Shown: in pieces, positions 1-40,325 of the stretch | Layout: every line of letters starts with the position of its first letter | Numbering within the stretch: the stretch's first letter is position 1 | UHGV virus genome: UHGV-0382853 | Source of the DNA: a virus | Length of the DNA: 40,325 bases | Strand: one strand, 5' to 3' | Notes under the pieces: generated by a model | Told to the model about the DNA's origin: nothing | Database searches by the model: none | What the model saw: the letters and a program-made list of their open reading frames with translations, nothing else | Made by a program: the position numbers and the translations under genes

Positions 1-64
1 GGTCAATAAATAACAATACACCAGAAATTATCACACTCAAAATAATTAAAAACACAACACTTCC

Positions 65-2539
65 TTATTGCGGAGTGACATCCTGAGGTCGCCACCAGTA
101 TGTCTGGTTAAACTCTTTCTTCGAACGTTGCTCCATTTTACGCAAATAGCCTGGTGAAAAATACTCCTGCATCTGGTTAAAGATCATGTGATCGAGAGCC
201 GCCTTCAAGTACCAGAGATTCGCACCAGGCATCAAACCTTTCCCCAGCTTCACCAGATCACCACCAGTCTGCTCACTCTTCCCTTCCACAGCATTTAACG
301 GTATGCCCTGAGCAATCTTCACTACGTCATCAACTAGACCAGCTACCGGGCCAAGCATCGACGCCAGCGCGCCGCTTCCGTACCTAGTGTGATCTGACAA
401 TAAAAAGTCACCGTAAAGGCCAAGACCACCACCTTTCAGTAGAGCACCAAGCCAGAATTTTGCGGCATCTTCTCCTGTCATCTCTCGAGGATTACGACCA
501 GACGCAAGGTCGTTAAGTTGTTGCGACAAAGCGCCAAGAATGGTCGTACTGGCAATAAACGTCGCAATATATGCCGCACGCCCACCAGCAGACGGCATAC
601 CCATAGCGCGTGACCAGTGACGCATAACAACCGAGATAGGGAACGATTTAAACAGGAAAACACTTCTCGTTAATTCACCTTTCCATGTTCCACGCTGAAT
701 ACCAGAACCGGTTATCAGTTGCTCACGTGCTCCCGGTGTAATAACAGCCATATCAACTTCTTCAGTTACGGCACCGAGCAGTTTACGCATTGCCTCAAAT
801 TTCACGCGTTCAGGCTCACCAAGATGTTTAACTGCTGAATCAGGGATACGCATAATGCTTTCCGGTGTCAGCATCGTATTATTACCGTTCCCCCAGTCCT
901 CCTGTTGCGCCAACTTCCATACGCTCCAGTCTGTGTCAGTAATCCCTTTGCTTTTCAGGATACGAAAATCAGAGTCATCGAGGCGACGAAGGTCTGGTGT
1001 CCGTGACACTACTTCTCCCAGGCTTCCCATCATGGTTACGCCATAGGCGCGCTTGTGCGCATCTGACCATGCTGTAAGCCCACTGGCACGCATTACCGCC
1101 GTTGCAGCCCAACGAGACACAGACGGCCCCATATTATCCATCGCCCAGCGGTTAACGCTGCCAAGTAGAGATTCCATCGCCAGACCAGCGCGGCGCGCCC
1201 GCGCAAGTTCTGTACGGTTCGTTGGGTCCATAGCTTCAAGCTGGTTGCGGAATAACTGGTTCATTGGAAGGTTGGTAACCTTCGCAGACAGATACATGGT
1301 TCCAAGATCAGAGAACGATGACAGCAACGCGGATCCGAGTCTGCTGGCAACCAGCCAGTTGCGGATATTGTCAGACCATCGCGCGATGTGCGGATTCGCT
1401 ACAGGCTGTGTCTTTCCGGAAATAAAGTTGTACAGATTCTCTGTGTTGTTCGCCAGCCGCTCGACTTTACCGGTTTTACTCGGGTTAGCTGTTGCCGTTT
1501 CTGCCTTCACCTGATCAAGAAGAGAGCGGAAAACATGATCGGGGTTTGGACCATATGTTTCCACCAGTGCAATATCTTTACTGATACCTTCCAGGTGACC
1601 GACCATGATTTCCCATAGAGAGCGATCGCCATAAAGTTGCTGATATTGCAGATAGGAATCTGCATCTTTGAAATGTATCTGTCGTGATGCATTACCACGG
1701 TTAGCACGTGCGCCGGAAATTCGCATTCCGGTATCAGTAAGCTTATTCAGCCCACCAGTAGCGATCGTGTTATAAGCCTCTCCAAGAAATGCAGACAACT
1801 CGGCATCGTTCATCAGTTGTCCATCGGCTCGGGTATAATATTTGCGATCCAGCTTACCTATAACATCGCTAACCCATTTATCTTTTGATACCGCCCCAAC
1901 CTTTTCCATAGAATGATGTTGAGGGATCCCCCAGTTTTCGAGATAGCCAATGTCCCCACCAGCATCATTAAACCGGCGGCGCAGTAGCTCTGTCACTTCT
2001 CTCCACGCCTTAGCACCTTTTCTTGCTTTAGCATTGCCAGTATTTTGCCCCAGCATTTCATATACCAGGTCACGTACGCCCGCTTCATCTTCAAACAGAC
2101 CAAAAAAGCGAGGATCAACTGCTTCGAATGCCTCCTGCAATTGACTCAATGCATAATCACGGGTGGCTTTTGTTCTGGATTCAACAGAGAGGAAATTCGA
2201 TTTACCGTCTGCATTAAAAGCAATAGTACGGTTAAGAGCGCCAAGTTTCCCATCAGCCCCTTGATAGCTATTGATAAATTTATCCAATCTCTGACGTGCG
2301 GCTATAGTGAGGGCCACACGACGTTTCTTTAATGCCGCTTCTCGCTGTAATTCTTCAGATGCCAATTGTGCTGCACGATACAGCCGCTCTGATTCGGAAA
2401 GTTGTCGCCACGACATCGGGTCATCACGAGCAATGGAGCGCATATTTCGATAAATGCGGTCTTCAATGTTCTGTATTTCTCGCGCCGTTAACGTGCGCTG
2501 CGCCGCCTGCTGGACCGCTTGTATACATTCCTGTCTCAT
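65..2539 (-). CDS. large internal virion / ejection protein (T7 gp16-like position), last gene of structural operon
   Basis: 824-aa ORF, ATG with GAGAGG SD; follows the gp14/gp15-like genes in T7-like order; no specific domain recognised. Confidence 0.5.
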   Translation of the reverse strand: MRQECIQAVQQAAQRTLTAREIQNIEDRIYRNMRSIARDDPMSWRQLSESERLYRAAQLASEELQREAALKKRRVALTIAARQRLDKFINSYQGADGKLGALNRTIAFNADGKSNFLSVESRTKATRDYALSQLQEAFEAVDPRFFGLFEDEAGVRDLVYEMLGQNTGNAKARKGAKAWREVTELLRRRFNDAGGDIGYLENWGIPQHHSMEKVGAVSKDKWVSDVIGKLDRKYYTRADGQLMNDAELSAFLGEAYNTIATGGLNKLTDTGMRISGARANRGNASRQIHFKDADSYLQYQQLYGDRSLWEIMVGHLEGISKDIALVETYGPNPDHVFRSLLDQVKAETATANPSKTGKVERLANNTENLYNFISGKTQPVANPHIARWSDNIRNWLVASRLGSALLSSFSDLGTMYLSAKVTNLPMNQLFRNQLEAMDPTNRTELARARRAGLAMESLLGSVNRWAMDNMGPSVSRWAATAVMRASGLTAWSDAHKRAYGVTMMGSLGEVVSRTPDLRRLDDSDFRILKSKGITDTDWSVWKLAQQEDWGNGNNTMLTPESIMRIPDSAVKHLGEPERVKFEAMRKLLGAVTEEVDMAVITPGAREQLITGSGIQRGTWKGELTRSVFLFKSFPISVVMRHWSRAMGMPSAGGRAAYIATFIASTTILGALSQQLNDLASGRNPREMTGEDAAKFWLGALLKGGGLGLYGDFLLSDHTRYGSGALASMLGPVAGLVDDVVKIAQGIPLNAVEGKSEQTGGDLVKLGKGLMPGANLWYLKAALDHMIFNQMQEYFSPGYLRKMEQRSKKEFNQTYWWRPQDVTPQ

Positions 2540-2544
2540 TTAAT

Positions 2545-28978: not shown

Positions 28979-29274
28979 GAAAGTTAAGCCGACTTGAAAA
29001 ATATCACATGAACAAGGTTTCAATGCGCCGTCCTTCAAAGGTTATCGCCGTTACTCCTGCGGCGATAGAGTTCGAAAAACGCGCGATTGAAAGAGAGAAA
29101 AAAGGGCAGTTCCGCATTGCCGCCCACCTTTGGCTTCAGTGTATGGATGTTGCTTCTGGTGATGTTGAGCGTGCAAGGATCGCGGTTCGCAGGGACCAAT
29201 GTATCACAAAAGGTAACGGCCTTCGCCGTGGCGACTATAGCGGCATAGGATGTTGCGGGGTGGTTTATGACTAA
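28975..29274 (+). CDS. PerC-like transcriptional regulator (tentative)
   Basis: 99-aa ORF; motif ...AAIEFEKRAIEREKKGQFRIAAHLW... reminiscent of PerC/Pch family; start uncertain (GTG 28975 or ATG 29005). Confidence 0.35.
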   Translation: MRKLSRLEKYHMNKVSMRRPSKVIAVTPAAIEFEKRAIEREKKGQFRIAAHLWLQCMDVASGDVERARIAVRRDQCITKGNGLRRGDYSGIGCCGVVYD

Positions 29275-29917
29275 GAAATACACGCTAATCTATGCAGATC
29301 CACCATGGGTATACCGGGACAAAGCCGCAGATGGTAATCGCGGTGCCGGTTTTAAATATCCAGTTATGAGTGTGCTGGATATCTGCCGCCTTCCTGTGTG
29401 GGATTTGACCGCTGAAAACTGTCTGTTGGCCATGTGGTGGGTGCCAACACAACCACTCGAAGCACTAAAAGTTGTTGAAGCCTGGGGATTTCGTCTGATG
29501 ACCATGAAGGGCTTCACGTGGATAAAATGTGGTAGTCGACAACCAGATAAACTGGTTATGGGTATGGGACACATGACTCGCGCCAATAGTGAAGATTGCC
29601 TGTTTGCAGTAAAGGGAAAACTACCTACGCGCATTAATGCAGGGATCGTTCAGTCATTTACCGCACCGCGGCTTGAGCATTCAAGAAAACCAGATATTGT
29701 TCGTGAAAAACTTGTGCAATTGTTAGGCGATGTTTCTCGCATTGAACTATTCGCCCGCCAGACGTCTCATGGCTTCGATGTTTGGGGTAATCAGTGCGAA
29801 GACCCGGCAGTGCAACTACACCCTGGATACGCGTTGGATATTGCCGGATTAACAAATGCATTCAGCAATGCTCCGCTGTCACCAACAGACAACCAGGGGC
29901 GGGAGCGTGCAGCATGA
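29267..29917 (+). CDS. MT-A70-family DNA N6-adenine methyltransferase
   Basis: 216 aa; N-terminal LIYADPPW catalytic motif; no adjacent restriction gene. Confidence 0.75.
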   Translation: MTKKYTLIYADPPWVYRDKAADGNRGAGFKYPVMSVLDICRLPVWDLTAENCLLAMWWVPTQPLEALKVVEAWGFRLMTMKGFTWIKCGSRQPDKLVMGMGHMTRANSEDCLFAVKGKLPTRINAGIVQSFTAPRLEHSRKPDIVREKLVQLLGDVSRIELFARQTSHGFDVWGNQCEDPAVQLHPGYALDIAGLTNAFSNAPLSPTDNQGRERAA

Positions 29918-30108
29918 ACAGGGCATCACCAGCAGATTTAAGGAAATGCCTTGAAACTGCAAACATGCTTGCACACAGCGGGATCAGGTTTGTTCCAATT
30001 CCCGCTGTCACTGATGCTGAATTTGCAACGCTGTCAGCAATATTCGCAGACAAAATTGAATCACTGGCAGCAGAAGCCGAGATGGAAGAAAATCAGCAGA
30101 ACTATTAA
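29914..30108 (+). CDS. hypothetical protein
   Basis: 64 aa from ATG 29914 (ATGA overlap with methylase stop, GGGAG SD); track start at 29794 discarded. Confidence 0.4.
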   Translation: MNRASPADLRKCLETANMLAHSGIRFVPIPAVTDAEFATLSAIFADKIESLAAEAEMEENQQNY

Positions 30109-30114
30109 ACGTTA

Positions 30115-31362
30115 TTATCCCGCCATCCACTTCTCAAACTTCGACGGGGAGAACGGAATCAGATCCGTATGCTCCCCGTCAATCCAGGAATCAATCATAT
30201 CGGCCCACTGCTGCAACATGTAGGCGCGCTGTCTGGCGTATTCCGCTTTGTTATATACGGCGCGCACACCTTTCTGCTCATGTGCCAGAGCCTTTTCAAT
30301 CCAGTCTGAAGGATAACCAGCCTCATGCAACAACGTACTTGCTGTACGGCGCATATCGTGTACGGTGAAGCCCTGAATATGCTCACCATCTTCATTTATT
30401 ATTTTCACCGTTCTGTCGATCAGAGAGTTCAGCGCGGCATTAGATAATGGCTTCCGGAAATTGTAACGACCAGGAACCAGATATTCACTTCCACCAGCGC
30501 ACATCTGCAACCCGACCAATATATCCTGAGCCTGTTTAGGCAGGTAAATAACGTGCGCCCGGCTTCCCTTCATGCGGTCTGAAGGAATTGTCCATGTCCA
30601 TTTTTTAAAATCTATTTCATCCCACGTTGCGTTGGTGAATTCGCCTTTACGAACCATAGTGATAAGCACCAGCTTTAAAGCCATTTTCATAGTGCCCATA
30701 GCACCAATGGCATCCAGCGTGCGGAAGAACAGGCCAATTTCTTCTGGTGTCAGTGTTCGCTCTCGTGGTTTAAATATGGCGATAGACGAAGGTTTAATGT
30801 CAGCCGCAGGATTAAACAAACCATGACCACGGTCATTGGCGTGACGGTATACGCTGCTGATGATCTCCCTGGCCTGTACTGCTGTTGCCCGACCACCGCG
30901 TTCGACAATCCGGTCACACAAATCACGAACCATCGATGTGGTAATTTCAGCCATCATTTTGTTGCCAAGAACCGGAAGTATGTCACGGTCGATCACCGCC
31001 TGCTTCATTGCGCGGGTACTGTCAGCCAGGATGACGTGTTTCATATAACTGTCGGTATGTACCGCAAACGTCTCAGCACCACGAATCTTTTTGATACCGT
31101 CACGTTTAGCCGCAGCCGGTGACTGGCCTGCTTTAAGCAGCTTCTTTGCAGCAATCAGTTCTTCCCGCGCTTCTGCCAGGCTGATACCGTCACGCCCATA
31201 CTGCCCGATTACCAGTGTTTCGCGGCGACCGTTGATACGGTAGTCATAGCGAAACGAGACCGTGCCTGACGTAAGCACAGCTACATACAGCCCGTCACGA
31301 TCGGAGACCTTGTACAGTTTGTCCTGCGGCTTGAGGTTTTTTAATTTTGTATCGGTAAGCAC
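30115..31362 (-). CDS. int: tyrosine integrase (P4-type)
   Basis: 415 aa; N-terminal MLTDTKLKNLKP...DGLYVAV... (DUF4102-like arm-binding domain) and C-terminal HDMRRTASTLLHEAGY...YNKAEYARQ catalytic region. Confidence 0.9.
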   Translation of the reverse strand: MLTDTKLKNLKPQDKLYKVSDRDGLYVAVLTSGTVSFRYDYRINGRRETLVIGQYGRDGISLAEAREELIAAKKLLKAGQSPAAAKRDGIKKIRGAETFAVHTDSYMKHVILADSTRAMKQAVIDRDILPVLGNKMMAEITTSMVRDLCDRIVERGGRATAVQAREIISSVYRHANDRGHGLFNPAADIKPSSIAIFKPRERTLTPEEIGLFFRTLDAIGAMGTMKMALKLVLITMVRKGEFTNATWDEIDFKKWTWTIPSDRMKGSRAHVIYLPKQAQDILVGLQMCAGGSEYLVPGRYNFRKPLSNAALNSLIDRTVKIINEDGEHIQGFTVHDMRRTASTLLHEAGYPSDWIEKALAHEQKGVRAVYNKAEYARQRAYMLQQWADMIDSWIDGEHTDLIPFSPSKFEKWMAG

Positions 31363-31404
31363 AATTCACCCGTATAGAAACCATTTTCATGACGGTATGA
31401 GAGT

Positions 31405-31419
31405 ATACCTTTAAGGTAA
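31405..31419. promoter_or_regulatory. operator-like palindrome upstream of integrase, nested in a larger inverted repeat
   Basis: atacctttaaggtaa flanked by tgacggtat (31390-31398) and ataccgtca (31419-31427). Confidence 0.45.
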
Positions 31420-31679
31420 TACCGTCACCTGTACCGCCGAAAAATATGGTGTAGAGTGAATAGAAATGAATACATAAAAACAAAAACCCCCTGCAAAAAC
31501 AGAGGGTTGAGTTGGCATCTGAATAGGAATGATTTGCTATGAGTTAGCTGTTAATCATTCCCACTCAATTATTTACGATAACCATAACCAATTGAGTGAT
31601 AACATTTTTCCAAATCTCAATTTTTATCGTACCGTTTTATATACCGTCACCGGAAATCAGTACCATGAAAAATGCCATG

Positions 31680-32162
31680 CTATCTGGTCAGGGTGTCGTA
31701 CTGTTTTTCACAGACTCTTCCGGCTTCGGCTGCCCGGTCAGCATACTCTGCCAGTTGTCTGTTTCTCTCGAGAGATTTACTGAGCACGTCGGCAAGCAAA
31801 ACTCCGGTGTCTGCGGCTGACGTCCCAGCGCCGACAATGGCGTTATACTGCCTGAGCTGCTCACGGATGGCAACGAGCTGTTGCTGCAACCGGCCAGCGC
31901 GAGCGGCAGCATCAAGAGCATCATTGCGCGCCTGGTCGATCCTCTGCTGCGCTTCACGTTCATTGATCGCTTTCTCCTGTTCGTAGTGCTGACGAATTCT
32001 CTCATCTTCGGTTTTGCGGTCTTCTTTCGCCTGCGCATACCCGGCGTCGTACTGACGACTGCCGTGTACACTCCAGGCAACAACTCCTGATATGACCAGA
32101 ACAGCAAGCACCGCCATGATAATCAACTGTTTCCGGTATGCTTTTACGAATGCCCAGATCAT
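31680..32162 (-). CDS. i-spanin (Rz-like)
   Basis: 160 aa; N-terminal TM helix then Gln/Arg/Glu-rich coiled coil; directly downstream of the endolysin. Confidence 0.7.
31688..31924 (-). CDS. o-spanin (Rz1-like) embedded in the Rz frame
   Basis: Alternative frame encodes [17 protein letters not shown]... (signal peptide with LAGC lipobox); start could also be the upstream Met at 31963. Confidence 0.45.
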   Translation of the reverse strand: MMLLMLPLALAGCSNSSLPSVSSSGSITPLSALGRQPQTPEFCLPTCSVNLSRETDNWQSMLTGQPKPEESVKNSTTP

Positions 32163-32788
32163 ACCGCCAGCACCTTACTGGCATTGATGTATCGCGCGCG
32201 CCGGTCGTCGATGCCGTTCCGGCCACCATTGATAATCAGAGTTACACGTGCAATATCGCCGGTATACTTCATGCATCCTTTGCTGGCAAAGAACCACGCC
32301 GCGCTACGAGCCGCGTATTCGTCCTGCGCCAGCAGTTCAGGACTCTCCAGCAGGTCAACCTTAAGACCGTTTCCACAGTCACGATAGTTATTCAAACCGG
32401 TAACCTGGATAAGCCCGCGCCCACGGTAGTTCCAGCCATCACCAGGGGCATTGTTCCCCATGCGTTTGCTGTACACCAGATTGGCAATCGCTCTCTGGCG
32501 CTCAAGTGGCAATGGTGGTTCGCCTGCACGTCGCCCCAATGCGTTGGCCTGTCCCTGAGTGAGACGCCCAGCCCGAACAAAGTTAGCCAGTCCGCTGACG
32601 CTGTAGTTGAAATTCTCCTGCAACCGGGTGAAGCCTCCAGACTCATGCCCGACCTGAGCAATAAACATAGCCTGATCTTCTGGTTTGCTGATACCAAACT
32701 CTTTCATCGCAGAAGTTATATGCGAGAACCAGCGTGCGGCCAGTGCCTCGCTGATACCAGCAGCTCGCTGGAATTGTTTAATCTCCAT
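32159..32788 (-). CDS. endolysin, glycoside hydrolase family 19-like
   Basis: Motifs [12 protein letters not shown] and [16 protein letters not shown] typical of GH19 phage lysozymes; GAGGT SD. Confidence 0.8.
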
Positions 32789-33086
32789 GTTTAGACCTCG
32801 ATACTTTGAAAATTTGAACGACGTTACCGCGCGTTTTAATAACCGCAGCTAGCATGACAGCGTTGATAATGACCTCAGATAAATCCACAGCCATTGGCGT
32901 ACGTAACCAGATTGCATAGGCGACACGAACAGGAATACTGGCCGCAGCAACAATCAGGAAATAAGCAAGCCATCCTCCCCACCTTCGGTGTTGAGAGCCG
33001 TTACGCCGGAATGTGACAACGCGAATTGCTATGCCAGTGCAAATAACTGCATTGGTGATAAGCAAAAAAAACTCATGCGTTACCAT
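32778..33086 (-). CDS. putative holin
   Basis: 102 aa with 2-3 predicted TM helices and charged C-terminus; immediately upstream of the endolysin; GGGGAG SD. Confidence 0.5.
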
Positions 33087-33477
33087 CGTCTTTTCTCCCC
33101 GGAATTAACTCGCGTGGATTATCGGAACGGTGATAGAGCCATATACCAATACGCACAGCGACAATTGCTGACACGAATGCGCCTGCAGAGAAAACAATCC
33201 CTTTTTCAAAAGAGTCCTGCGTGATGGTAGGGATCAGGCTGGCTATGCCGATAAGAATTGATGCTGCTGGTTTGTAAAAGAGAAGGCCGCAAAGAAAGCT
33301 GAGCATCGACAGGAGCACCCGGCGACGGATGGGGTACTCTACTGCAGAGGTAACAAAAATTACCGCTCCAGCCAAAGCACCCAAAGCAACCTCAGGAGGA
33401 ACTCCTGCTATCACCGCCGCCAGAGAACTCATGCTAAGCCACTGATTTAAAGTTTCACTGGTTAGTTGAGCTGACAT
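33073..33477 (-). CDS. holin-like membrane protein (holin or antiholin)
   Basis: Start moved to ATG 33477 (GGTGGA SD); 3-4 hydrophobic helices; lysis-cassette position. Confidence 0.45.
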   Translation of the reverse strand: MSAQLTSETLNQWLSMSSLAAVIAGVPPEVALGALAGAVIFVTSAVEYPIRRRVLLSMLSFLCGLLFYKPAASILIGIASLIPTITQDSFEKGIVFSAGAFVSAIVAVRIGIWLYHRSDNPRELIPGRKDDGNA

Positions 33478-33679
33478 GTTTTCCACCGTTTATATGCATA
33501 ACAACCTCCTGAACAGTAAAGCATTACGCATAATAAACCATTTATGGTTTTTTGTTACTTTAACATCGTCAATTCCCTGTTTTTCATGCCGAGAATAAAG
33601 CTCACCTTTTACATGACTCTGAAGAAACAAACAGTGAAGAGCAGGTTGAATACCGCACCATTTAATGGCGCGGTAGCAG

Positions 33680-33976
33680 TCAAATAGAGAAATAAACACA
33701 AAAACAAAAAACAACAGGAACAGCAAAATCCAACAGACTTCCCACATCCCACACGCGTGGATCAAAACCTCCCCACCACGGCATGTTGATACGTTTCCCT
33801 TTCCCAAACTTTTCTATCCAGCGATATTCTGCCTGGGTGTGTTCACGCGCAATGAAGAACGTACAACCGGCTATCGCACCGTAAGCCCAGTTTCCGGTAA
33901 AAATACCAACCAGTACCTGAGCCACAAAAGCGCAAAGCGAGTGAAGAAATGGAGTGACATCAATGCTCTTAATCAT
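33680..33976 (-). CDS. small membrane protein co-transcribed with tailspike
   Basis: 98 aa, two hydrophobic segments; ATG overlaps the tailspike stop (ATGA). Confidence 0.45.
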   Translation of the reverse strand: MIKSIDVTPFLHSLCAFVAQVLVGIFTGNWAYGAIAGCTFFIAREHTQAEYRWIEKFGKGKRINMPWWGGFDPRVWDVGSLLDFAVPVVFCFCVYFSI

Positions 33977-36162
33977 GAAACTTCCCCATTGGTTGAAAAT
34001 ATGGCTCCTCCAACGCCAAGTGTATTTCGTGTTGTGCTCAACCTCAGAGGGCTGGAGTCAGAATTAGAATATCCTGTAGCAGAAATAAAAGATCCTCCAC
34101 TAATAGTCAACTGCGGAACATCGGCTATATCTGAATAAGTTCTGTCAGCAACAGTATTATTTATAGCCACATATGATCCAAAAAAACTTCTTATTGTTTG
34201 GTTTTTAACTTTACTTCCTTCAATGGTTATCCTACTACCACAGTCGGCAATAAATCCTGAATCTGCATCCAGCGTTGCATTCATAAAAGAAGCTTCAGAT
34301 CTCTCTACATCAATCCATCTAATATCTTTTGTGGGATTTGCACCAAATACATGACAAATATTAGAGTTAAACCTTACACCATCTTGGAGGTGCATTAATT
34401 TTTTTATATCTGTACCCCATAGCCTTGGAAAATTAACAGATGCTCCTGCATGGCAATCAAATCCCAGCTCAGCCCCTGAGATATCTACAGCCTTTCCTGA
34501 AATAACAGCACCAGTGTCTGCATTAACGGCTGTTCCACAATTGCGCATATCATTACCAGCAACATCAACGCAACCCGCACCATCAATACGCACACCAAGT
34601 GCACATCCATAAAAACCTTTTTCAATATTTGGTTCAAGGACTTTACCACTTGTTTCTGCATCACTTTCTTCAACGTCATGTCGTCTTGCATCAACATATG
34701 CTGTATGAATGCAGGTTAATCCACGATATGAGCAATGTATAGTTTTATGGTCGCGTATATTAACATTTGAACCATCTCTTACATTCCATCCTATATAACA
34801 ATAGCTTGCACTTGACCCCTGAAAATCTGCTTTAACATTATAAATACAATTAACTGACGCAACCGTACTCTCTGTGCACCGTTCAAACTTGCTTACAGGC
34901 ATTGATGCCTTGACATTATTTACCAGTTGCAGGGAAGAGTATCTGCTATAAGAAAAATCACATACGTAATACCCTTCTGGCATATATGCAGCAACACTTT
35001 CCTCATCAGGAGCACATCCGGTATGATATGCACTAATTTTTGCACCAAAACTACCATGAATTCCAACGTAGAACTTTCGAGCACCTGAATACGGATAGAA
35101 ATTAAGTTCAGCTTTTTGAGTTACAATAAATGCACAAACATCGCTATCATCTCTATTTTCTTCGATCTGAATAGCAAATACAGGACTTTTTGCTGCATCG
35201 CAAATGTAAAATAAATACTTGTATTCGTAATACGTTCTAACGATTTTAGTAAACAAACGAGTGTCAGAGAAAACCACTGAGTCTTCTGATGTTATTTTAA
35301 TCCAAGACAAATCAACACCTGAACTGAATTCAATTTGATAGTTGATAATATGCCCGGTCTTAATTCTTATTTCGCAGAAAGCATTACCACCATCCCACAT
35401 AGGTCTCATTGACTGGGCTGCAATGATTGCATCTTTGAGTGTAGGGTAATCACCCCATTCGCCAACAGTAATAACAAAAGTATAATATGAGTTAAAAACA
35501 GCGGCATTTTTGCCTTTGGATATCAACTCCTTAATCATAAAAATATTATCTTCGTAATCACAAGGAGAAATTATATCCCTCATTTTGCTTTGAAATGTTC
35601 GTTGTCTTGCCCCGCTTCCTGACGGTATAAACCAACCAAAACCACCAACAACCCCGGCGATTGCAGCATCGACATAATTACGCATTGAGCGATTATTTAC
35701 AGCATCCTGCTCAAGTGATGGATCTGCAAGGTTAGAAATTCTGTTTTGCTTTGCATCGTAATATTTTGCAAGCAGAGAGGGCTTCATCAATGCACGTCTG
35801 AACCACCCAAAACATTGCTGGATCAGCATCGTCAGGTAGTCAAAGGCATCTTCATGCACTTCGGGGAAAAATTTTCCCTGATTGCGAAGGTCTGTCTCCT
35901 GCACTACATCAAGCACACGATCTATCGTAATTCGCCATCCAGTAGCAAGCGGAGACGGAAGAACCACAGAACCGCCACTATAAGTGCCCGCCCCAGTTAC
36001 CGTATAACCGGTATCCAGGACCAATTCTGTTACGTTCCCGTTCAGGTCAGACACCTGAACAACCAGGTCTGATTTTCTGAAAATTCGAAAAGTATACGGA
36101 AACGATGTCGTAACGCCGTTACCGGTGTATTCGTTGTGGTCAACTTCGGTTGAGACCGTCAT
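33973..36162 (-). CDS. tailspike / tail fibre with conserved N-terminal anchor and probable beta-helix depolymerase C-terminal domain
   Basis: 729 aa; N-terminus ...YTGNGVTTSFPYTF...LDTGYTV...ITIDRVL...ETDLRNQG resembles podoviral tail-fibre N-terminal domain; the C-terminal two thirds are AT-rich with Cys/Asn/Ser/Gly-rich repeats. Confidence 0.65.
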   Translation of the reverse strand: MTVSTEVDHNEYTGNGVTTSFPYTFRIFRKSDLVVQVSDLNGNVTELVLDTGYTVTGAGTYSGGSVVLPSPLATGWRITIDRVLDVVQETDLRNQGKFFPEVHEDAFDYLTMLIQQCFGWFRRALMKPSLLAKYYDAKQNRISNLADPSLEQDAVNNRSMRNYVDAAIAGVVGGFGWFIPSGSGARQRTFQSKMRDIISPCDYEDNIFMIKELISKGKNAAVFNSYYTFVITVGEWGDYPTLKDAIIAAQSMRPMWDGGNAFCEIRIKTGHIINYQIEFSSGVDLSWIKITSEDSVVFSDTRLFTKIVRTYYEYKYLFYICDAAKSPVFAIQIEENRDDSDVCAFIVTQKAELNFYPYSGARKFYVGIHGSFGAKISAYHTGCAPDEESVAAYMPEGYYVCDFSYSRYSSLQLVNNVKASMPVSKFERCTESTVASVNCIYNVKADFQGSSASYCYIGWNVRDGSNVNIRDHKTIHCSYRGLTCIHTAYVDARRHDVEESDAETSGKVLEPNIEKGFYGCALGVRIDGAGCVDVAGNDMRNCGTAVNADTGAVISGKAVDISGAELGFDCHAGASVNFPRLWGTDIKKLMHLQDGVRFNSNICHVFGANPTKDIRWIDVERSEASFMNATLDADSGFIADCGSRITIEGSKVKNQTIRSFFGSYVAINNTVADRTYSDIADVPQLTISGGSFISATGYSNSDSSPLRLSTTRNTLGVGGAIFSTNGEVS

Positions 36163-36266
36163 GTTAAATCTCCAGATAGTCGCAGCACCCGTTGCGCCGC
36201 ATATCTGGTTATTCTATTACCTGAAAAACCACATATGGATAAAAAGGCTGTAAATACGAATAGATA

Positions 36267-36281
36267 TTACCTTTCAGGTAA
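36267..36281. promoter_or_regulatory. operator-like palindrome between tailspike and antirepressor
   Basis: ttacctttcaggtaa; half-site ttacctgaa at about 36217. Confidence 0.5.
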
Positions 36282-36320
36282 TTTGCAAAACGTGCTGGAT
36301 AGCAAACAAATTATTTGCTA

Positions 36321-36336
36321 CTGTATAAATATACAG
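36321..36336. promoter_or_regulatory. LexA (SOS) box
   Basis: taCTGTataaatatACAGtt: exact CTGT-N8-ACAG with AT-rich spacer, 22 bp upstream of the ATG at 36358. Confidence 0.75.
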
Positions 36337-36357
36337 TTATTGCATGGAGAAGATAAG

Positions 36358-36615
36358 ATGCAGCGGTATCACTATCCACTGGAAGACGGATTTACCGAAA
36401 GGATTCACACGCCGGGAGGCGTCAGGTCACTGGTGGAGGGATCGCACTTGATGAAATTACTCCGGGATCTCGATAAGGATGGATTTAATGTCGATGGCCC
36501 ACTTGCCGAACTGACTGCACTGATTAACTACGTTACCAGCTCACAGATGTCTATGCGGGATCTGCAAACACATCTCGACTATTGTGCCGAACAATTACGA
36601 AAACAAACCCGGTAA
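36358..36615 (+). CDS. small antirepressor-like protein, paralog of the C-terminal domain of the AntA-type antirepressor
   Basis: 85 aa from ATG 36358 (GGAGAAG SD); aligns with the C-terminus of the 37766..38422 product (IH.P.GV...LM.LL..L..DG..V.G..AELT...LRD.QTH); the track start 36235 lies upstream of the LexA box and is discarded. Confidence 0.6.
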   Translation: MQRYHYPLEDGFTERIHTPGGVRSLVEGSHLMKLLRDLDKDGFNVDGPLAELTALINYVTSSQMSMRDLQTHLDYCAEQLRKQTR

Positions 36616-36622
36616 ATTTAAA

Positions 36623-36638
36623 GGCCGCAAGAGCGGCC
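36623..36638. terminator. bidirectional terminator hairpin
   Basis: ggccgc-aaga-gcggcc flanked by T-rich sequence on both strands; between convergent genes. Confidence 0.5.
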
Positions 36639-37366
36639 TATCGTTTCGCTTTGTGCTCGTCCCAGCACGTTTTGCACCATGCCATTAAGCCATCCGCATT
36701 TTGATTATTAGGGTAAAAGCTTGTTCGTTTTCTGCGGACATTACAAATTGGGCACCACTTCATATGGCGTGTATTCTTTGGGCCATCGAGACACCTTGCA
36801 CACCACTTAGTCAATCCATCTGGATTTTTTGACGATTTCCTGAATTTTTCATATGGTAGGTTTATTCTGCATCGCAAGCACTGCTTGCTACCACTTGAAA
36901 CTCTGTTAGCTGATTCTTCTTTTGGCGGCGATACAGAAGGTATTCTTGCTGGCTCTGATACTGCCTGAGGTGCTTTTTTAGATGACTGAGACGATATGTC
37001 ATCACCAGGGAATCTTCCATGATATGCCGGACGCATTGACACTCCAGGTGGAAGCTCAGCTGTAAACGGCTTTGGCTGAATCAGTTGCCTCTCTTTTGCT
37101 AACTCCTGCTGTTTATAATATGTCTGGATTACCGCACTATCATAAGCAGGAGGTGCGGAAATATTAGGCGCATTACCTCCAGTTTTTTGAAACTGAGTAG
37201 AGGTGTGTTCTATCACCTGTGTACGATTAATCGTTATCTCCCCATCTTCGGTCTTTATCGTTTTGTTATGATTAACGACCGTACGATCAGAGATCTTAGT
37301 CTTGTTCTGGTTGATAACGTAAATAATCACCGCAACCACACCAACAACTATCCAGAAAACTTCCAT
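36638..37366 (-). CDS. membrane-anchored protein with duplicated C-terminal zinc-ribbon (CxxC-N-CxxC x2)
   Basis: 242 aa; N-terminal TM helix (FWIVVGVVAVIIYVI); C-terminal repeats C.RC...DGL..WC..C; GAGGAAAA SD. Confidence 0.5.
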   Translation of the reverse strand: MEVFWIVVGVVAVIIYVINQNKTKISDRTVVNHNKTIKTEDGEITINRTQVIEHTSTQFQKTGGNAPNISAPPAYDSAVIQTYYKQQELAKERQLIQPKPFTAELPPGVSMRPAYHGRFPGDDISSQSSKKAPQAVSEPARIPSVSPPKEESANRVSSGSKQCLRCRINLPYEKFRKSSKNPDGLTKWCARCLDGPKNTRHMKWCPICNVRRKRTSFYPNNQNADGLMAWCKTCWDEHKAKR

Positions 37367-37386
37367 TGCTTTTCCTCACAATAACA

Positions 37387-37401
37387 TTACCTTAAAGGTA
37401 A
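37387..37401. promoter_or_regulatory. operator-like palindrome
   Basis: ttaccttaaaggtaa, about 21 bp upstream of the minus-strand start at 37366. Confidence 0.5.
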
Positions 37402-37479
37402 TATCTTGCTTTCAGGTGATCAAGCGTTAAACGCAATCAACCAAATACGGTTGATTTTAATATTTCTTCGCGTTTATCA

Positions 37480-37494
37480 TTACCTTTGCGGTAA
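37480..37494. promoter_or_regulatory. operator-like palindrome
   Basis: ttacctttgcggtaa at the head of the antirepressor leader. Confidence 0.5.
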
Positions 37495-37585
37495 ATTTAC
37501 ATTGCACTCCTCTTGTGCCATAGTAATCGGGCACTGGCAAAATCCAGTGCCGGGATTGGTCTCCCGGATTACTAAGTGGCGCATA

Positions 37586-37607
37586 CCACGCCAGACGTGG
37601 TTTTTTT
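37586..37607 (+). terminator. rho-independent terminator inside the antirepressor leader
   Basis: ccacg-ccaga-cgtgg followed by ttttttt. Confidence 0.55.
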
Positions 37608-37765
37608 ATGCGTATAGCACAGTCATGCCAGAATTATGGTGGGCTGAATGGGGGTCCGAAAGGACGCCGGTACCACTTAGGCCGGTAAGACCAACTCCGT
37701 TCAGTTCACCACCATCTGATTGGTCTCAGCGGTGGTGATGTAATTCGCTAAGTGGAGACGCCATC

Positions 37766-38422
37766 ATGAACGCTCAACTCATCCCCGTATTCAACGGCAC
37801 TATATCTAACGAAACAGCCCTACTTTGTAATGCCCGCGATCTGCACACTTTTTTAGGTGTTAAAAAGGTGTTTGCAGCATGGATTACAAATCGCATATCA
37901 GAATACGAATTCATTGAAAATCAAGACTATATTTTGCTTTCCAATTTGGGAAAGCAAACATCTGGTAGAGGCGGCCACAACCGCAAAGAGTACCACCTCA
38001 CCCTTGATACAGCCAAAGAGCTGGCGATGGTCGAGCGTAACGAAAAAGGTCGCCAGGTGCGACGCTACTTCATTGAATGCGAGAAACGTTTAAGACAACA
38101 AGAAACAAAAGTGGAGAAGGTCTTGTCAGGCTTCATGCCCGCCATTATGGAGGCGATCAAGCTGGAAGACAAAAAAGAATACAGCGCCCCACTGAAGCCC
38201 GGCTACCGCAGCCTGATTCATTCTCCGTCTGGTGTTCTCGGACTGACGGAGAACTCACTGCTGATGAATCTGCTGAACCAGTTACAGGAAGACGGGCACG
38301 ACGTATCGGGCGCGGCGGCGGAGCTGACCACCATGTTCTGCTACATCGTCGGTGTGAGCAAATGCCTGCGTGATATCCAGACGCACGCGGAGTACATCAA
38401 CGACAAGGCAGGGTTCTTCTGA
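37766..38422 (+). CDS. antirepressor (AntA/AntB N-terminal domain)
   Basis: 218 aa; N-terminal IPVFNGT...LCNARDLHTFLGVKKVFAAWITNRISEYEFIENQDYIL typical of AntA domain; C-terminal domain paralogous to the 36358 product. Confidence 0.7.
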   Translation: MNAQLIPVFNGTISNETALLCNARDLHTFLGVKKVFAAWITNRISEYEFIENQDYILLSNLGKQTSGRGGHNRKEYHLTLDTAKELAMVERNEKGRQVRRYFIECEKRLRQQETKVEKVLSGFMPAIMEAIKLEDKKEYSAPLKPGYRSLIHSPSGVLGLTENSLLMNLLNQLQEDGHDVSGAAAELTTMFCYIVGVSKCLRDIQTHAEYINDKAGFF

Positions 38423-38431
38423 CAGAACGGC

Positions 38432-38453
38432 GGCACAGGGATGTGCCTTTAAA
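38432..38453 (+). terminator. possible terminator after antirepressor
   Basis: ggcaca-ggga-tgtgcc followed by tttaaata. Confidence 0.4.
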
Positions 38454-38495
38454 TAATTCTGTACAGATTGCAGACCGGGGGTGAATAGCGTACTA

Positions 38496-38510
38496 TTACC
38501 TTAAAGGTAA
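38496..38510. promoter_or_regulatory. operator-like palindrome
   Basis: ttaccttaaaggtaa, about 26 bp upstream of the ATG at 38537. Confidence 0.5.
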
Positions 38511-38536
38511 ACCATGTGTTTACATGAGGAGGAGAT

Positions 38537-38746
38537 ATGGGATTTTGGTTCGCTCGTACAAAAACGAGGGATAATGCACCCAGCCCTCAGGCAAAAAATG
38601 CAGAAGTTCCGGCGTCAGCGCAGGTTAACAAGCGTGGTGGTGTGTATATCTCATCACAGCAAATTTCTGAGCTTCCTGAGGTTAAGGAGATGCGTCGTCT
38701 CGCTGCTGCAATCGTTAAACAGGATCTTGCCACTGTAAGGAAATAG
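38537..38746 (+). CDS. small hydrophilic protein
   Basis: 69 aa; strong SD GAGGAGG 5 nt upstream; stop overlaps the next gene's GTG start. Confidence 0.45.
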   Translation: MGFWFARTKTRDNAPSPQAKNAEVPASAQVNKRGGVYISSQQISELPEVKEMRRLAAAIVKQDLATVRK

Positions 38747-39612
38747 TGTTGTTAGCTCTTCTAATTATCCCCATTCTGGTTAGTGGTTATATTATGATAA
38801 CCGCTAACCAGTATCATTATTTCCGTTTATACCGACATGAAGGCCAGCTTCTTTATATGAAAGTAGCTGCATTAGGTACATATTGCCTTGTTGCTTCGGT
38901 AATAATTGCCGCATTTATAAAATATAAATATCCTGATTTTCACCTAGTTCACGATATGGTGGAAACTTTTAATGTAACGTCAAAACCAGAAACAGATAGA
39001 ATTTACATGTGGCTGCTTCTTCTCTCAGCCACATCCATTTGCTTCTCTTTGTGTTATGTGTCTGTTGTGTGGGTGAAAGATTTTCTTCTTGGTTGTTTTT
39101 ATAAACGTGATATTTACGAGCAAAAAACAGAGGCAATGAAGGCCAGAGTACTGCGAAAAACTTACTCGCAAGGTTCTTTAGACTTACTATTGCTTGATGC
39201 TATTGAATCGGATCCTAAACGACCAATGCTGATTACTTTATCATCAAACAAAGTGTATGTTGGAATAATAAATGGTTCTGGTGAACCAACGGAAAATCAG
39301 GGTCCGCATCAGCACATATCTTTTGTTCCTTTAATGTCAGGATACAGGAACAAAGACAACTTATCTGTCACATTCACTAATGCTTATCCAGGAGAAATAC
39401 AGGTCAAGCGGACTGCAGCAATAAGAGGAATTAGCAGAAAGAAAGTGCCAGGACTTGAGATCATGGTGTCTATTGACGAAATAAGTTATATATCATGGTT
39501 TGATTTTGAAGTATATAAAGCAACAAATAACAAAGTAGAATCCAGGGGGCACGTTATTCGTGTTACCAAAAATGGAAGAAATATATATCAAAGAAATAGC
39601 AAAAAAGAATAG
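38746..39612 (+). CDS. membrane protein (3 N-terminal TM helices plus about 170-aa soluble domain), AT-rich
   Basis: 288 aa; GTG start coupled to the upstream stop; AT-rich codon usage unlike neighbouring genes; followed by a strong terminator. Confidence 0.5.
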   Translation: MLLALLIIPILVSGYIMITANQYHYFRLYRHEGQLLYMKVAALGTYCLVASVIIAAFIKYKYPDFHLVHDMVETFNVTSKPETDRIYMWLLLLSATSICFSLCYVSVVWVKDFLLGCFYKRDIYEQKTEAMKARVLRKTYSQGSLDLLLLDAIESDPKRPMLITLSSNKVYVGIINGSGEPTENQGPHQHISFVPLMSGYRNKDNLSVTFTNAYPGEIQVKRTAAIRGISRKKVPGLEIMVSIDEISYISWFDFEVYKATNNKVESRGHVIRVTKNGRNIYQRNSKKE

Positions 39613-39633
39613 CCCGCGCTGCGGGCTTTTTTG
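39611..39633 (+). terminator. rho-independent terminator
   Basis: agcccgc-gct-gcgggct followed by ttttttg. Confidence 0.7.
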
Positions 39634-39704
39634 TGGACGAAACAAAAGCCAGTGCTACACTCATTGACGCCACATTGAGGTGGCTTATAGATGGAAATTT
39701 CACA

Positions 39705-39866
39705 ATGAAAAAAGCATTTGCTGCACTGTTCGTTTTGTTGTCTCTGGTAGCTTCAACTCAGGCCTTTGCCGGTCGTTGTCAGCACGACAGCGATACTGCC
39801 GCTGACGGCTCCCGCTGCGGTGGGCGTTCTGCGGATTCCCGCCCGGGTGGCGGTGGCATTCGTTAA
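39705..39866 (+). CDS. small secreted protein
   Basis: 53 aa from the internal ATG (MKKAFAALFVLLSLVASTQAFA signal peptide); weak SD; the track start 39633 adds an unlikely N-terminus. Confidence 0.35.
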   Translation: MKKAFAALFVLLSLVASTQAFAGRCQHDSDTAADGSRCGGRSADSRPGGGGIR

Positions 39867-39871
39867 AAACA

Positions 39872-39889
39872 AGGCCGCGAAAGCGGCCT
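39872..39889. terminator. hairpin between convergent genes
   Basis: aggccgc-gaaa-gcggcct, near-identical stem to the hairpin at 36623. Confidence 0.4.
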
Positions 39890-39897
39890 GTGACATG

Positions 39898-40194
39898 TCA
39901 CGTCCCTTTTCTGAATGATAGCCATTCGAAAAATGATGACATTCCACCGCAGACAATAGCAAAGATGATCCCACCAAAGAAGAGAAGGCCAGCCTGCCAC
40001 CACTCCCACCGCCATACATCCACAGCGCCAACCATACCAACAATCGCTCCAACAAATGGAATATAGCTCACGATGAAAGCAATGGGGGCTGCAATTATCC
40101 AGTGCAATCCCCACCATGATTCAAGCCCAGCCATAATTGCTGCCAACTGAAAAAGACCAACGACGATATAAACAATGAATCCTATAGCTTGCAT
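39898..40194 (-). CDS. small membrane protein
   Basis: 98 aa, 3 predicted TM helices, Trp-rich; AGGTGA SD. Confidence 0.45.
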   Translation of the reverse strand: MQAIGFIVYIVVGLFQLAAIMAGLESWWGLHWIIAAPIAFIVSYIPFVGAIVGMVGAVDVWRWEWWQAGLLFFGGIIFAIVCGGMSSFFEWLSFRKGT

Positions 40195-40207
40195 GTAGTC
40201 ACCTATT

Positions 40208-40325
40208 TACCCAGTAAAAATAAGAGGCCTCCCCTCAATAAGGCTTGCAACAAGAACTACTCCCTGCACAACAAAGATGAACCAGCAAATAGCTTGAGTC
40301 TGAGGGTTAAGAAAATATTTGTAGC
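40208..40325 (-). CDS. partial ORF (3' end only), hydrophobic
   Basis: Open minus-strand frame running off the right edge of the window and ending at stop 40208-40210. Confidence 0.2.

What the first reader, a model, noticed from the sequence alone, without database searches (positions are those of the whole stretch)
33680..36162. Mosaic tailspike located away from the virion module, with a co-transcribed small membrane protein
The tailspike sits to the right of the lysis cassette rather than after the ejectosome genes. Its N-terminal anchor region has backbone-like composition, while the C-terminal two thirds are AT-rich, consistent with a swapped receptor-binding/depolymerase domain. A 98-aa two-TM protein is translationally coupled to its stop. 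In temperate podoviruses such neighbours are often O-antigen conversion factors that block re-adsorption.
Basis: partly seen in the sequence, partly recalled or inferred. Interest (0 to 1): 0.5.

Follow-up and report, generated by a model that had tools for sequence, protein, structure and literature searches.

The report
Swapped tailspike tip plus trailing membrane gene
This is the normal tailspike-plus-lysis block of an epsilon15/phiV10-type E. coli phage, whose host-recognition tip has been swapped in from elsewhere; the tiny membrane-protein gene behind it belongs to a widespread uncharacterised family that usually sits just after receptor-binding genes in phages and marks the downstream edge of the swapped piece.

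Summary
The window is a circularly permuted Uetakevirus genome, 99% identical to Escherichia phage HEMP4 over the region compared.

**Tailspike (36162..33973, minus strand)**
- It is a two-module mosaic. Residues 1 to about 178-203 form the genus anchor.
- The rest is a high-confidence beta-helix receptor-binding domain. It is also the lowest-GC 1.66 kb of the window (0.38 against 0.487).
- Its position next to the lysis cassette is the canonical genus layout, and partly an effect of where the window was cut.

**98-aa ORF (33976..33680)**
- Its start overlaps the tailspike stop as ATGA.
- It belongs to phrog_1443, which has no Pfam, NCBIfam or PADLOC match and no informative fold match.
- The model shows three helices. 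The conserved His / Arg-Glu-x-x-Gln-Ala-Glu core probably faces the cytoplasm.
- The gene sits exactly where phiV10 carries oac and epsilon15 carries its conversion genes.

**What the family looks like elsewhere**
- It follows receptor-binding genes in at least eight phage backbones, in most of them far from any lysis genes.
- Its core is about 95% identical between phages with unrelated tips.
- Homologues sit beside housekeeping genes in Sphingomonadaceae.
- Homology breakpoints make it the 3' arm of the exchangeable tip cassette.

**Verdict:** the mosaic is confirmed and already described. The small gene is not a lysis component. An O-antigen conversion role is unproven and rather unlikely. 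Its function is unknown.

The parts
33973..36162 (-). Tailspike gene, 729 aa (full-length match to phrog_5662)
   Evidence: ORF. phrog_5662 covers 1-729 of 729 positions with E=0. 99% identical proteins occur in IMG/VR loci L009-L013.
35627..36162 (-). N-terminal anchor module. It covers residues 1 to about 178 at nucleotide level, and about 203 at protein level (down to roughly 35554).
   Evidence: 94-99.9% nucleotide identity to other Uetakevirus loci ends at 35627. Residues 1-203 are 91-96% identical to tailspikes with unrelated C-termini. Matches PDB 28lx Dpo31 residues 1-207 at E=3.8e-32. GC 0.466.
33976..35626 (-). Exchanged receptor-binding domain: a low-GC, right-handed beta-helix
   Evidence: GC 0.38, the lowest in the window. 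AF2 pLDDT 93.7 and pTM 0.90. Foldseek hits to 8egr, 3gq8, 2vfm and 6w4q. Only 22 homologue clusters exist, joined to 5 different anchor types. 97.7% nucleotide identity to the Lederberg-type loci L016 and L024 over 35345..33717.
33973..33976 (-). ATGA overlap between the tailspike stop and the orf98 start
   Evidence: Sequence read. The same -4 overlap is kept in L009-L013, L016-L024 and the Aeromonas locus L090.
33680..33976 (-). orf98: small inner-membrane protein of family phrog_1443. It forms the 3' homology arm of the receptor-binding-domain cassette.
   Evidence: phrog_1443 at E=3.3e-55. AF2 gives three helices at pLDDT 90.7. Whole-gene median dN/dS is 0.18 and the core (residues 28-82) is 0.095. 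Homology to other Uetakeviruses resumes at 33963. Lambdoid and P22-like phages share only 33964..33711.
33073..33486 (-). gp23-like membrane protein (Phage_holin_8). This is the first gene of the conserved lysis block and is listed as context.
   Evidence: Pfam PF16931 at E=4.4e-12. Syntenic with epsilon15 gp23 and phiV10 p27.
31680..33086 (-). Holin (33086..32778), GH19 endolysin (32788..32159) and Rz-type spanin (32162..31680). Listed as context.
   Evidence: Pfam PF05449, PF00182 and PF10721. 94.5% nucleotide identity to phiV10.
36163..40325 (.). Variable accessory island between the last ejection gene (65..2539, reached by wrapping round the window ends) and the tailspike. Listed as context.
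   Evidence: ORF map. An ORF spans the window ends. Only patchy homology to the equivalent phiV10 region.

Best explanation
**What is shown**
- The region is the tailspike-to-lysis late block of an epsilon15/phiV10-type temperate podovirus.
- The tailspike is built from two modules. A genus-conserved anchor (about 180-205 residues) plugs into the tail. A horizontally acquired, low-GC beta-helix domain binds, and probably cleaves, a surface polysaccharide.
- The domain cassette is bounded upstream by the anchor and downstream by orf98.
- orf98 is itself mosaic. Its first helix travels with the upstream receptor-binding domain and its last helix travels with the phage backbone.
- Its near-invariant core (residues 28-82) is the stretch shared between otherwise unrelated phages. 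It therefore acts as the downstream crossover site for domain exchange between Uetake-, Lederberg-, lambdoid and other phages.
- The protein is real and under purifying selection.

**What is inferred**
- It is a small three-helix inner-membrane protein. By the positive-inside rule, its conserved residues (H12, R44, E45, Q48, A49, E50, W76, P87) gather at the cytoplasmic face.
- In this phage it is made with the tailspike by translational coupling.
- It is neither a lysis-cassette component nor a recognisable O-antigen-modifying enzyme.

**Best guess at function (about 0.3, inference only)**
- It is a receptor-type-independent accessory envelope protein captured from a cellular family. It would act at or in the inner membrane, for example as a superinfection-exclusion or entry-blocking factor, and it rides with receptor-binding cassettes.
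For: - **Genus and layout:** 99.2% identity to HEMP4, plus synteny with epsilon15 and phiV10.
- **Mosaic and composition:**
- **Beta-helix:**
- **Published precedent:** a 205-aa anchor and exchangeable receptor-binding domain in Uetake- and Lederbergviruses are already described (PMC10408124).
- **Position of orf98:** immediately downstream on the same strand as a tail-fibre or tailspike gene in 78 of the 80 IMG/VR loci (the upstream ORF of two, L047 and L032, was an IS transposase or truncated at the contig end), across 10 distinct tailspike/tail-fibre clusters.
- **Same position in other backbones:** Gally, lambdoid phages, Comamonas, Aeromonas P2-like, P1-like, a Kuttervirus-like contig, an S74-fibre phage and a Desulfovibrio prophage.
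- **Intragenic mosaic and selection:** alignment and dN/dS.
- **Structure and motif:**
- **Prevalence:** present in 1918 of 5426 complete E. coli genomes, always annotated as hypothetical.
Against: - The function rests on no direct evidence. There are no informative fold matches, no Pfam, NCBIfam or PADLOC hit and no literature.
- Topology is inferred only from charge distribution and the model.
- Tight coupling to a late gene is unusual for a prophage-expressed exclusion gene.
- A terminator plus a promoter-like site upstream of the homologue was seen only in Gally.
- In Alphaproteobacteria the family is not phage-linked, so the link to receptor-binding genes is not universal.
- Use of the core as a crossover site is deduced from breakpoints. 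No formal recombination test was run.
Confidence: 0.55

Rival explanations
1. O-antigen conversion factor. The small membrane protein would alter or reduce O-antigen in infected or lysogenic cells, so that the phage cannot re-adsorb.
For: - It occupies exactly the slot of phiV10 oac and epsilon15 gp21/gp22. Relative to phiV10, the replaced block is [RBD+oac] against [RBD+orf98].
- In the P22-like phage Gally it sits between the tailspike and int, where gtr or oac genes usually lie. A terminator and a promoter-like site lie upstream there.
- Small 2-TM Wzy inhibitors are a precedent, for example epsilon15 gp22.
Against: - No similarity to any known conversion protein.
- The core is about 95% identical (mean core dN 0.03) behind at least ten unrelated receptor-binding domains and behind non-O-antigen-type fibres of lambdoid, P1-like and P2-like phages.
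- Almost none of the protein is exposed to the periplasm in the model.
- Chromosomal homologues occur in Sphingomonadaceae, which by general knowledge lack LPS.
- It is co-oriented with and overlaps a late gene.
Confidence: 0.13
2. Lysis-timing component, such as a holin, antiholin or lysis regulator. It would be placed after the last-made structural gene, as T7 gp17.5 and T4 t are.
For: - It lies directly upstream of the gp23-like/holin/endolysin/Rz block here.
- It is adjacent to lydB in a P1-like contig.
- In a T7-like phage the homologous receptor-binding domain is followed by a holin.
Against: - In lambdoid, P22-like, P2-like and Kuttervirus-like genomes it lies far from the lysis cassette.
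- It has no charged C-terminal tail and ends inside a hydrophobic helix.
- It has a strongly conserved polar motif, which is unlike holins.
- Only 1 of 51 members gives a weak hit to a holin Pfam family.
Confidence: 0.08
3. Helper dedicated to the receptor-binding protein. It would be a late, membrane-anchored factor needed for folding, maturation or delivery of the fibre or spike encoded just upstream.
For: - Start overlaps of -4 or -8 bases, or gaps under 40 bases, on the same strand as the receptor-binding gene in most phage contexts.
- The N-terminal helix co-varies with the upstream receptor-binding domain.
- Tail-fibre chaperones classically occupy this position (general knowledge).
Against: - The co-varying part is explained equally well by simple linkage.
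- The conserved core does not depend on the type of receptor-binding domain.
- Beta-helix tailspikes generally need no separate chaperone (general knowledge).
- A homologous domain works without it in T7-like and other phages.
- Non-phage chromosomal homologues exist.
Confidence: 0.12
4. Pure hitch-hiker. The gene would persist only as a homology arm for cassette exchange, and its protein would have no role for the phage.
For: Nucleotide homology between unrelated backbones is confined to the gene itself (33964..33711). The alignment shows an intragenic mosaic.
Against: - The core has dN/dS of 0.095 with dS of 0.34, so conservation acts at the protein level.
- The family is kept down to roughly 30-45% identity across Proteobacteria with the same motif.
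Confidence: 0.08

Closest known systems
Uetakevirus tailspikes: epsilon15 gp20, phiV10 gp25 and phiv142-3. They have a modular anchor plus receptor-binding domain, as described by Pas et al. 2023 (PMC10408124).
   Same: The same N-terminal anchor of about 205 aa, the same genome position between the accessory island and the lysis cassette, and a beta-helix receptor-binding domain exchanged with Lederberg-, Kutter-, P2- and T7-type anchors.
   Different: The receptor-binding domain type is rare, with 22 clusters among 5.8 billion proteins. Its glycan target was not identified here.
Serotype-conversion genes behind the tailspike: phiV10 Oac, epsilon15 gp21 (Wzy-like) and gp22 (alpha-polymerase inhibitor), and P22 gtrABC.
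   Same: The same slot immediately after the tailspike. These are also small or integral membrane proteins.
   Different: - No sequence or profile similarity.
- Same strand as the tailspike and overlapping it, rather than opposite strand with its own promoter.
- Not specific to one receptor-binding domain or O-type.
- Also found behind non-O-antigen fibres and in bacteria without LPS.
Receptor-gene-adjacent exclusion genes: T5 llp next to oad, cor behind the tail-fibre genes of phi80 and N15, and the P2 Z/fun hotspot. These come from my own knowledge.
   Same: A small envelope protein gene placed right after the receptor-binding gene.
   Different: Those proteins are specific to one receptor (FhuA). 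orf98 is conserved behind many unrelated receptor-binding proteins, and no exclusion phenotype is known for it.
Conserved boundary or linker sequences that guide module exchange in phage mosaics. Examples are lambdoid junction sequences and the motifs flanking receptor-binding domains reported in PMC10408124.
   Same: A conserved stretch flanks the variable receptor-binding domain, and homology breakpoints fall at or inside it.
   Different: Here the boundary is a protein-coding gene under purifying selection, shared across at least eight backbones.

Membership tests
Uetakevirus-type modular tailspike | N-terminal anchor homologous to phiV10 gp25 / epsilon15 gp20 residues 1 to about 205 | tested here: met
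   Residues 1-203 are 91-96% identical to other Uetakevirus tailspikes. 83% nucleotide identity to the phiV10 anchor region. Residues 1-166/206 match many phrog tail families.
Uetakevirus-type modular tailspike | C-terminal right-handed beta-helix receptor-binding or depolymerase domain | tested here: met
   AF2 pLDDT 93.7. Foldseek hits to phage appendages, tailspikes and polysaccharide lyases, with 8egr at E=2e-13. Enzymatic activity cannot be tested with these tools.
Uetakevirus-type modular tailspike | Gene order: ejection genes, accessory island, tailspike, variable slot, gp23/holin/endolysin/Rz, int | tested here: met
O-antigen conversion proteins (GtrA/B/C, Oac acyltransferase_3, Wzy, Iap-like inhibitors) | Sequence or profile similarity to a known conversion family | tested here: not met
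   No Pfam or NCBIfam hit. BLASTP and hhalign against epsilon15 gp22 give nothing.
O-antigen conversion proteins (GtrA/B/C, Oac acyltransferase_3, Wzy, Iap-like inhibitors) | Location in the conversion slot next to the tailspike gene | tested here: met
O-antigen conversion proteins (GtrA/B/C, Oac acyltransferase_3, Wzy, Iap-like inhibitors) | Independent, prophage-active transcription unit | tested here: inconclusive
   ATGA overlap with the late tailspike gene, and no promoter-like site in the last 300 nt upstream. A terminator plus a promoter-like site is present upstream of the Gally homologue.
O-antigen conversion proteins (GtrA/B/C, Oac acyltransferase_3, Wzy, Iap-like inhibitors) | Changes the LPS or O-antigen of the lysogen | not testable with these tools
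   Needs LPS profiling of lysogens with and without orf98.
Holin / antiholin | Membership of a holin family, a charged cytoplasmic C-terminal tail and residence in the lysis cassette | tested here: not met
   No holin Pfam hit for orf98, and only 1 of 51 relatives gives a weak one. The protein ends in a hydrophobic helix. In four or more backbones the gene is far from lysis genes.
PHROG family phrog_1443 (unknown function) | Full-length profile match | tested here: met
   E=3.3e-55, residues 5-98 against profile positions 1-94 of 97.
Known anti-phage defence or superinfection-exclusion proteins | Match to a PADLOC model or to a characterised Sie protein | tested here: not met
   No PADLOC hit. 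No informative structural neighbour. An exclusion phenotype cannot be tested here.

The most novel reading that the evidence does not exclude
phrog_1443 could be a previously undescribed companion gene of receptor-binding cassettes. It would be a cellular small inner-membrane protein captured by phages. It now trails tail-fibre and tailspike genes in at least eight unrelated phage lineages, including a virulent Kuttervirus-like genome. Under this reading it has two roles. Its near-invariant core would be the 3' crossover site that lets receptor-binding domains hop between phage families. The protein itself would carry out a new function tied to infection, independent of receptor type, at the cytoplasmic face of the inner membrane.
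Probability: 0.3. Interest if true: 0.6.

Novelty: new member of a known kind. Interest (0 to 1): 0.38.

Why it matters
- **The tailspike mosaic is textbook.** It adds one more anchor/receptor-binding-domain combination, useful for host-range prediction or for engineering phages and tailocins.
- **The small gene is the more useful lead.** It is present in about 35% of complete E. coli genomes, often in several copies, and is always annotated as hypothetical.
- **It could serve as a genomic marker.** Knowing that it reliably marks the 3' edge of exchangeable receptor-binding cassettes gives a practical landmark for delimiting receptor-binding domains in prophages.
- **It points to a mechanism of host-range exchange.** The breakpoints suggest a concrete homologous-recombination route for swapping host range between podo-, sipho- and myoviruses.
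- **A phenotype would matter widely.** If the protein has a role in exclusion, the envelope or assembly, that role would apply to a very large number of enterobacterial prophages.

Tried and rejected
**Searches on orf98 that found nothing**
- Pfam, NCBIfam and PADLOC scans, including a scan of 51 diverse relatives at E<=1, gave no consistent family.
- A profile search of 1.84 billion representatives returned only stand-alone proteins of about 90-120 aa, with no fusions that might hint at function.
- Comparison with the epsilon15 alpha-polymerase inhibitor showed no similarity.
- Literature searches by accession, phrog or FIGfam identifier, and for small membrane proteins downstream of tailspikes, found nothing on this family.
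- The Kapi1 and Hf4s seroconversion papers concern other genes.

**Inconclusive or failed**
- Promoter and terminator pattern scans could not settle whether the gene is expressed in lysogens.
- A pattern scan with the divergent alignment A3 failed for lack of conserved stretches. A1 was used instead.

**Ideas rejected**
- That the tailspike is displaced from the virion module. This is the canonical layout combined with the window's cut point.
- That orf98 is RBP-trailing in every context. Alphaproteobacterial copies sit next to ligA, pnp and other housekeeping genes.
Full report
**What the window is.** The region 31.5-37.5 kb is 99.2% identical to Escherichia phage HEMP4. It is related to phiv142-3, EC.W1-9, TL-2011b, phiV10 and epsilon15, so this is a Uetakevirus. 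Window 62-7400 is 98.5% identical to the phiV10 internal-virion and ejection genes. Window 28789-33549 is 94.5% identical to the phiV10 block that runs from the gp23-like protein through holin, endolysin and Rz to int.

The minus-strand order is as follows:

| Gene | Coordinates |
|---|---|
| Tailspike | 36162..33973 |
| orf98 | 33976..33680 |
| Phage_holin_8-like protein | 33486..33073 |
| Holin | 33086..32778 |
| GH19 endolysin | 32788..32159 |
| Rz | 32162..31680 |
| Integrase (after attP) | 31362..30115 |

This is exactly the annotated order in epsilon15 and phiV10. A 57-codon two-TM ORF spans the window ends, at the position of phiV10 p21. The window is therefore a circular permutation cut right after the last ejection gene. 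The tailspike lies about 4.2 kb downstream of the virion operon, across an accessory island that is also present, but shorter, in phiV10 and epsilon15. 'Located away from the virion module' is thus a genus trait plus an effect of where the genome was linearised, not an anomaly.

**The tailspike is a two-module mosaic.**
- Composition: the window has GC 0.486. Codons 1-205 have GC 0.46 (GC3 0.415) and codons 206-729 have GC 0.378 (GC3 0.242).
- The block 33964-35626 has GC 0.380 and is the lowest-GC 1.66-kb stretch in the whole window. The mean is 0.487 with sd 0.032, and only overlapping windows are as low.
- Homology: other Uetakevirus loci share 37000..35627 at 94-99.9% nucleotide identity and then nothing until 33963..32700.
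- At protein level, residues 1-203 are 91-96% identical to tailspikes of 624-924 aa with unrelated C-termini. Residues 185-729 are 89% identical to 685-aa tailspikes with a different anchor. That anchor is the P22 head-binding type (PF09008 and the phrog families shared with Gally).
- The receptor-binding domain (RBD) has only 22 homologue clusters among 5.8 billion proteins. These are fused to five anchor types: Uetake, PF09008, PF18668, PF12571 and PF03906.
- AlphaFold2 gives a confident model (pLDDT 93.7, pTM 0.90) that is almost entirely beta-strand coils.
- Foldseek places it with the phage Andhra and phi29 appendages, P22, CBA120 and Acinetobacter tailspikes, and PL6 lyases. This is a right-handed beta-helix.
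- Anchor/RBD modularity, including the 205-aa Uetakevirus anchor and exchange with Lederberg- and Kutterviruses, is already published (PMC10408124).

**orf98: anatomy.**
- Its ATG overlaps the tailspike TGA as ATGA, with a purine-rich stretch upstream.
- It matches phrog_1443, a family of unknown function, at E=3e-55. It matches nothing in Pfam, NCBIfam or PADLOC.
- AlphaFold2 with 83 homologues gives pLDDT 90.7 and three helices at 8-27, 30-56 and 78-97.
- Hydropathy shows hydrophobic stretches at 7-43 and 77-98.
- Seven Lys/Arg residues lie in the 44-77 loop and almost none elsewhere. By the positive-inside rule this implies N-in, loop-in, C-out. This topology is an inference.
- Across divergent relatives the near-invariant residues are H12, R44, E45, Q48, A49, E50, W76 and P87. 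Under that topology they all sit at the cytoplasmic interface, and almost none of the protein is exposed to the periplasm.
- Structural searches gave only generic helical bundles.
- A profile search of 1.84 billion representatives found 449 relatives, all stand-alone proteins of about 90-120 aa.

**orf98: genomic behaviour.**

In 78 of the 80 IMG/VR loci, the ORF immediately upstream on the same strand is a tailspike or tail-fibre protein. The gaps run from -4 to about 80 bases, with a few up to about 330. The upstream ORFs fall into 12 clusters, 10 of which are intact tailspike or tail-fibre types. In L047 the upstream ORF is an IS transposase, and in L032 it is a tail-fibre gene truncated at the contig end. 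The same arrangement appears in many other backbones:

| Backbone | Arrangement |
|---|---|
| Gally (P22-like) | Between tailspike and int |
| Lambdoid phages | After the distal side-fibre gene |
| E. coli B Qin remnant | Next to pinQ |
| Comamonas prophage | Two genes after a J-like protein |
| Aeromonas P2/HP1-like prophages | After the tail fibre, with a -4 overlap in L090 |
| Siphovirus-like contig | After a Peptidase_S74 fibre |
| Tail_spike_N/GDSL spike | After a spike whose RBD is homologous to the window's |
| P1-like contig | Between the fibre cluster and lydB |
| Salmonella Kuttervirus-like contig | Between two tailspike genes |
| Desulfovibrio prophage | After a 935-aa tailspike, gap 0 |

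- The gene is absent after homologous RBDs in a T7-like contig, where the holin follows instead, and in one Salmonella contig.
- Copies are found in 1918 of 5426 complete E. coli genomes, with a median of two per positive genome. All are annotated 'hypothetical protein'.
- The link to receptor-binding genes is not universal. In Sphingomonadaceae and other Alphaproteobacteria, homologues lie next to ligA, pnp, DAHP synthase or cytidine deaminase. This looks like a chromosomal, non-phage clade.

**orf98 as the cassette boundary.**
- Relative to phiV10, the replaced segment is exactly [RBD + oac] against [RBD + orf98].
- Among Uetakeviruses with different RBDs, homology resumes 13 nt into orf98.
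- The Lederberg-type loci L016 and L024 share one 1.63-kb block at 97.7% identity. It runs from RBD residue 273 or so to orf98 residue 87 or so.
- Lambdoid and P22-like phages share only the gene itself (33964..33711, 85-94% identity).
- The protein alignment shows that the N-terminal helix tracks the upstream RBD. The last helix tracks the backbone...FCFCVYFSI in Uetakeviruses...GCLLVWILAS in the P22-like loci and ...ACLLVWLLVNRG in lambdoid phages. Residues 28-82 are nearly invariant.
- Selection acts on the protein. The median dN/dS is 0.18. The core has dN/dS of 0.095 with dS of 0.34.
- My reading is that the gene's core is the downstream crossover site for RBD exchange, and that the gene travels with RBD cassettes. 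No formal recombination test was run.

**What orf98 does.** The function is unknown, and what follows is inference.
- A lysis-cassette role is unlikely. The gene is far from lysis genes in most backbones, it has no charged tail and it has a conserved polar motif.
- O-antigen conversion is supported only by position, since this is the slot of oac, wzy and iap. Against it stand several points:
  - There is no homology to conversion proteins.
  - The gene does not depend on the RBD type.
  - It occurs behind fibres of lambdoid, P1-like and P2-like phages.
  - It has almost no periplasmic exposure.
  - It is co-oriented with and overlaps a late gene.
  - It has homologues in bacteria that lack LPS (general knowledge for Sphingomonadaceae).
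- A chaperone-like role would fit the tight coupling. It fits poorly with a membrane protein whose conserved core ignores the RBD type, and with homologous RBDs that function without it.
- I favour, at about 0.3, a receptor-independent accessory inner-membrane function, such as blocking entry of superinfecting DNA. The gene would have been captured from a cellular family and kept linked to RBD cassettes.
- Expression status in lysogens is unresolved. Gally has a terminator plus a promoter-like site upstream of its copy. The window has neither.

**Verdict.**
- The mosaic interpretation is right but already described.
- The small gene is not a lysis component and is probably not a classical conversion factor.
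- The new element is the behaviour of phrog_1443 as a conserved 3' companion and boundary of RBD cassettes. It is modestly interesting and can be tested experimentally.

Noticed in passing
window 38746..39612 (+): A 288-aa ORF with an N-terminal hydrophobic segment sits in the second low-GC island of the window (GC 0.362). It matches phrog_3630 (unknown function) and has no Pfam or PADLOC hit. It could be a moron or defence gene in the accessory island.
   Followed up: partly
window 36638..37366 (-): A 242-aa protein with an N-terminal TM helix and two C-terminal Cys-rich repeats that resemble endonuclease VII / Lar-like zinc ribbons. It matches phrog_6762, with a weak Stc1 hit.
   Followed up: no
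window 36235..36615 (+) and 37766..38422 (+): The small ORF divergent from the tailspike is the counterpart of epsilon15 gp19 and phiV10 p24. Its C-terminal domain is paralogous to the C-terminus of the AntA-type antirepressor 1.2 kb away (phrog_450 and phrog_1760 hits, and similarity visible in the sequences).
   Followed up: partly
window 55..1 joined to 40325..40207 (-): A 57-codon two-TM ORF spans the two ends of the window, at the position of phiV10 p21. This shows the window is a circularly permuted complete genome with no terminal repeat.
   Followed up: yes
window 33499..33455 (-): A strong AGGAGG followed by ATG opens a 14-codon mini-ORF. It overlaps, out of frame, the start of the gp23-like membrane-protein gene. 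This may be a translational control element for the lysis block.
   Followed up: no
window 31688..32107 (-), inside Rz: The +1-frame ORF embedded in Rz carries a lipobox (LALAGC). It corresponds to the Rz1 o-spanin annotated in epsilon15 and phiV10.
   Followed up: partly
loci L154, L159, L165, L136, L153 (Alphaproteobacteria): phrog_1443 homologues in Sphingomonas, Sphingomicrobium and other Alphaproteobacteria lie next to pnp, ligA, DAHP synthase or cytidine deaminase. This suggests a cellular clade from which the phage copies derive, or the reverse.
   Followed up: partly
L095 5001-5297 (Salmonella contig, Kuttervirus-like): A family member sits between two Tail_spike_N/pectate-lyase tailspike genes of what looks like a virulent Ackermannviridae-type genome. 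This is consistent with the gene being carried along when RBD cassettes move between temperate and virulent phages.
   Followed up: no
L006 2499-2996 and L089 6970-7521: A second unknown family, phrog_3108, lies within one to three genes of the phrog_1443 member in an Aeromonas phage and in a Comamonas prophage. The two may be linked.
   Followed up: no
L091 4001-4294 (E. coli B / NEBExpress, Qin remnant): The laboratory B strain carries a copy between a distal tail-fibre gene and a truncated tfa, next to the pinQ invertase. A standard laboratory strain could therefore be used for knockout tests.
   Followed up: no
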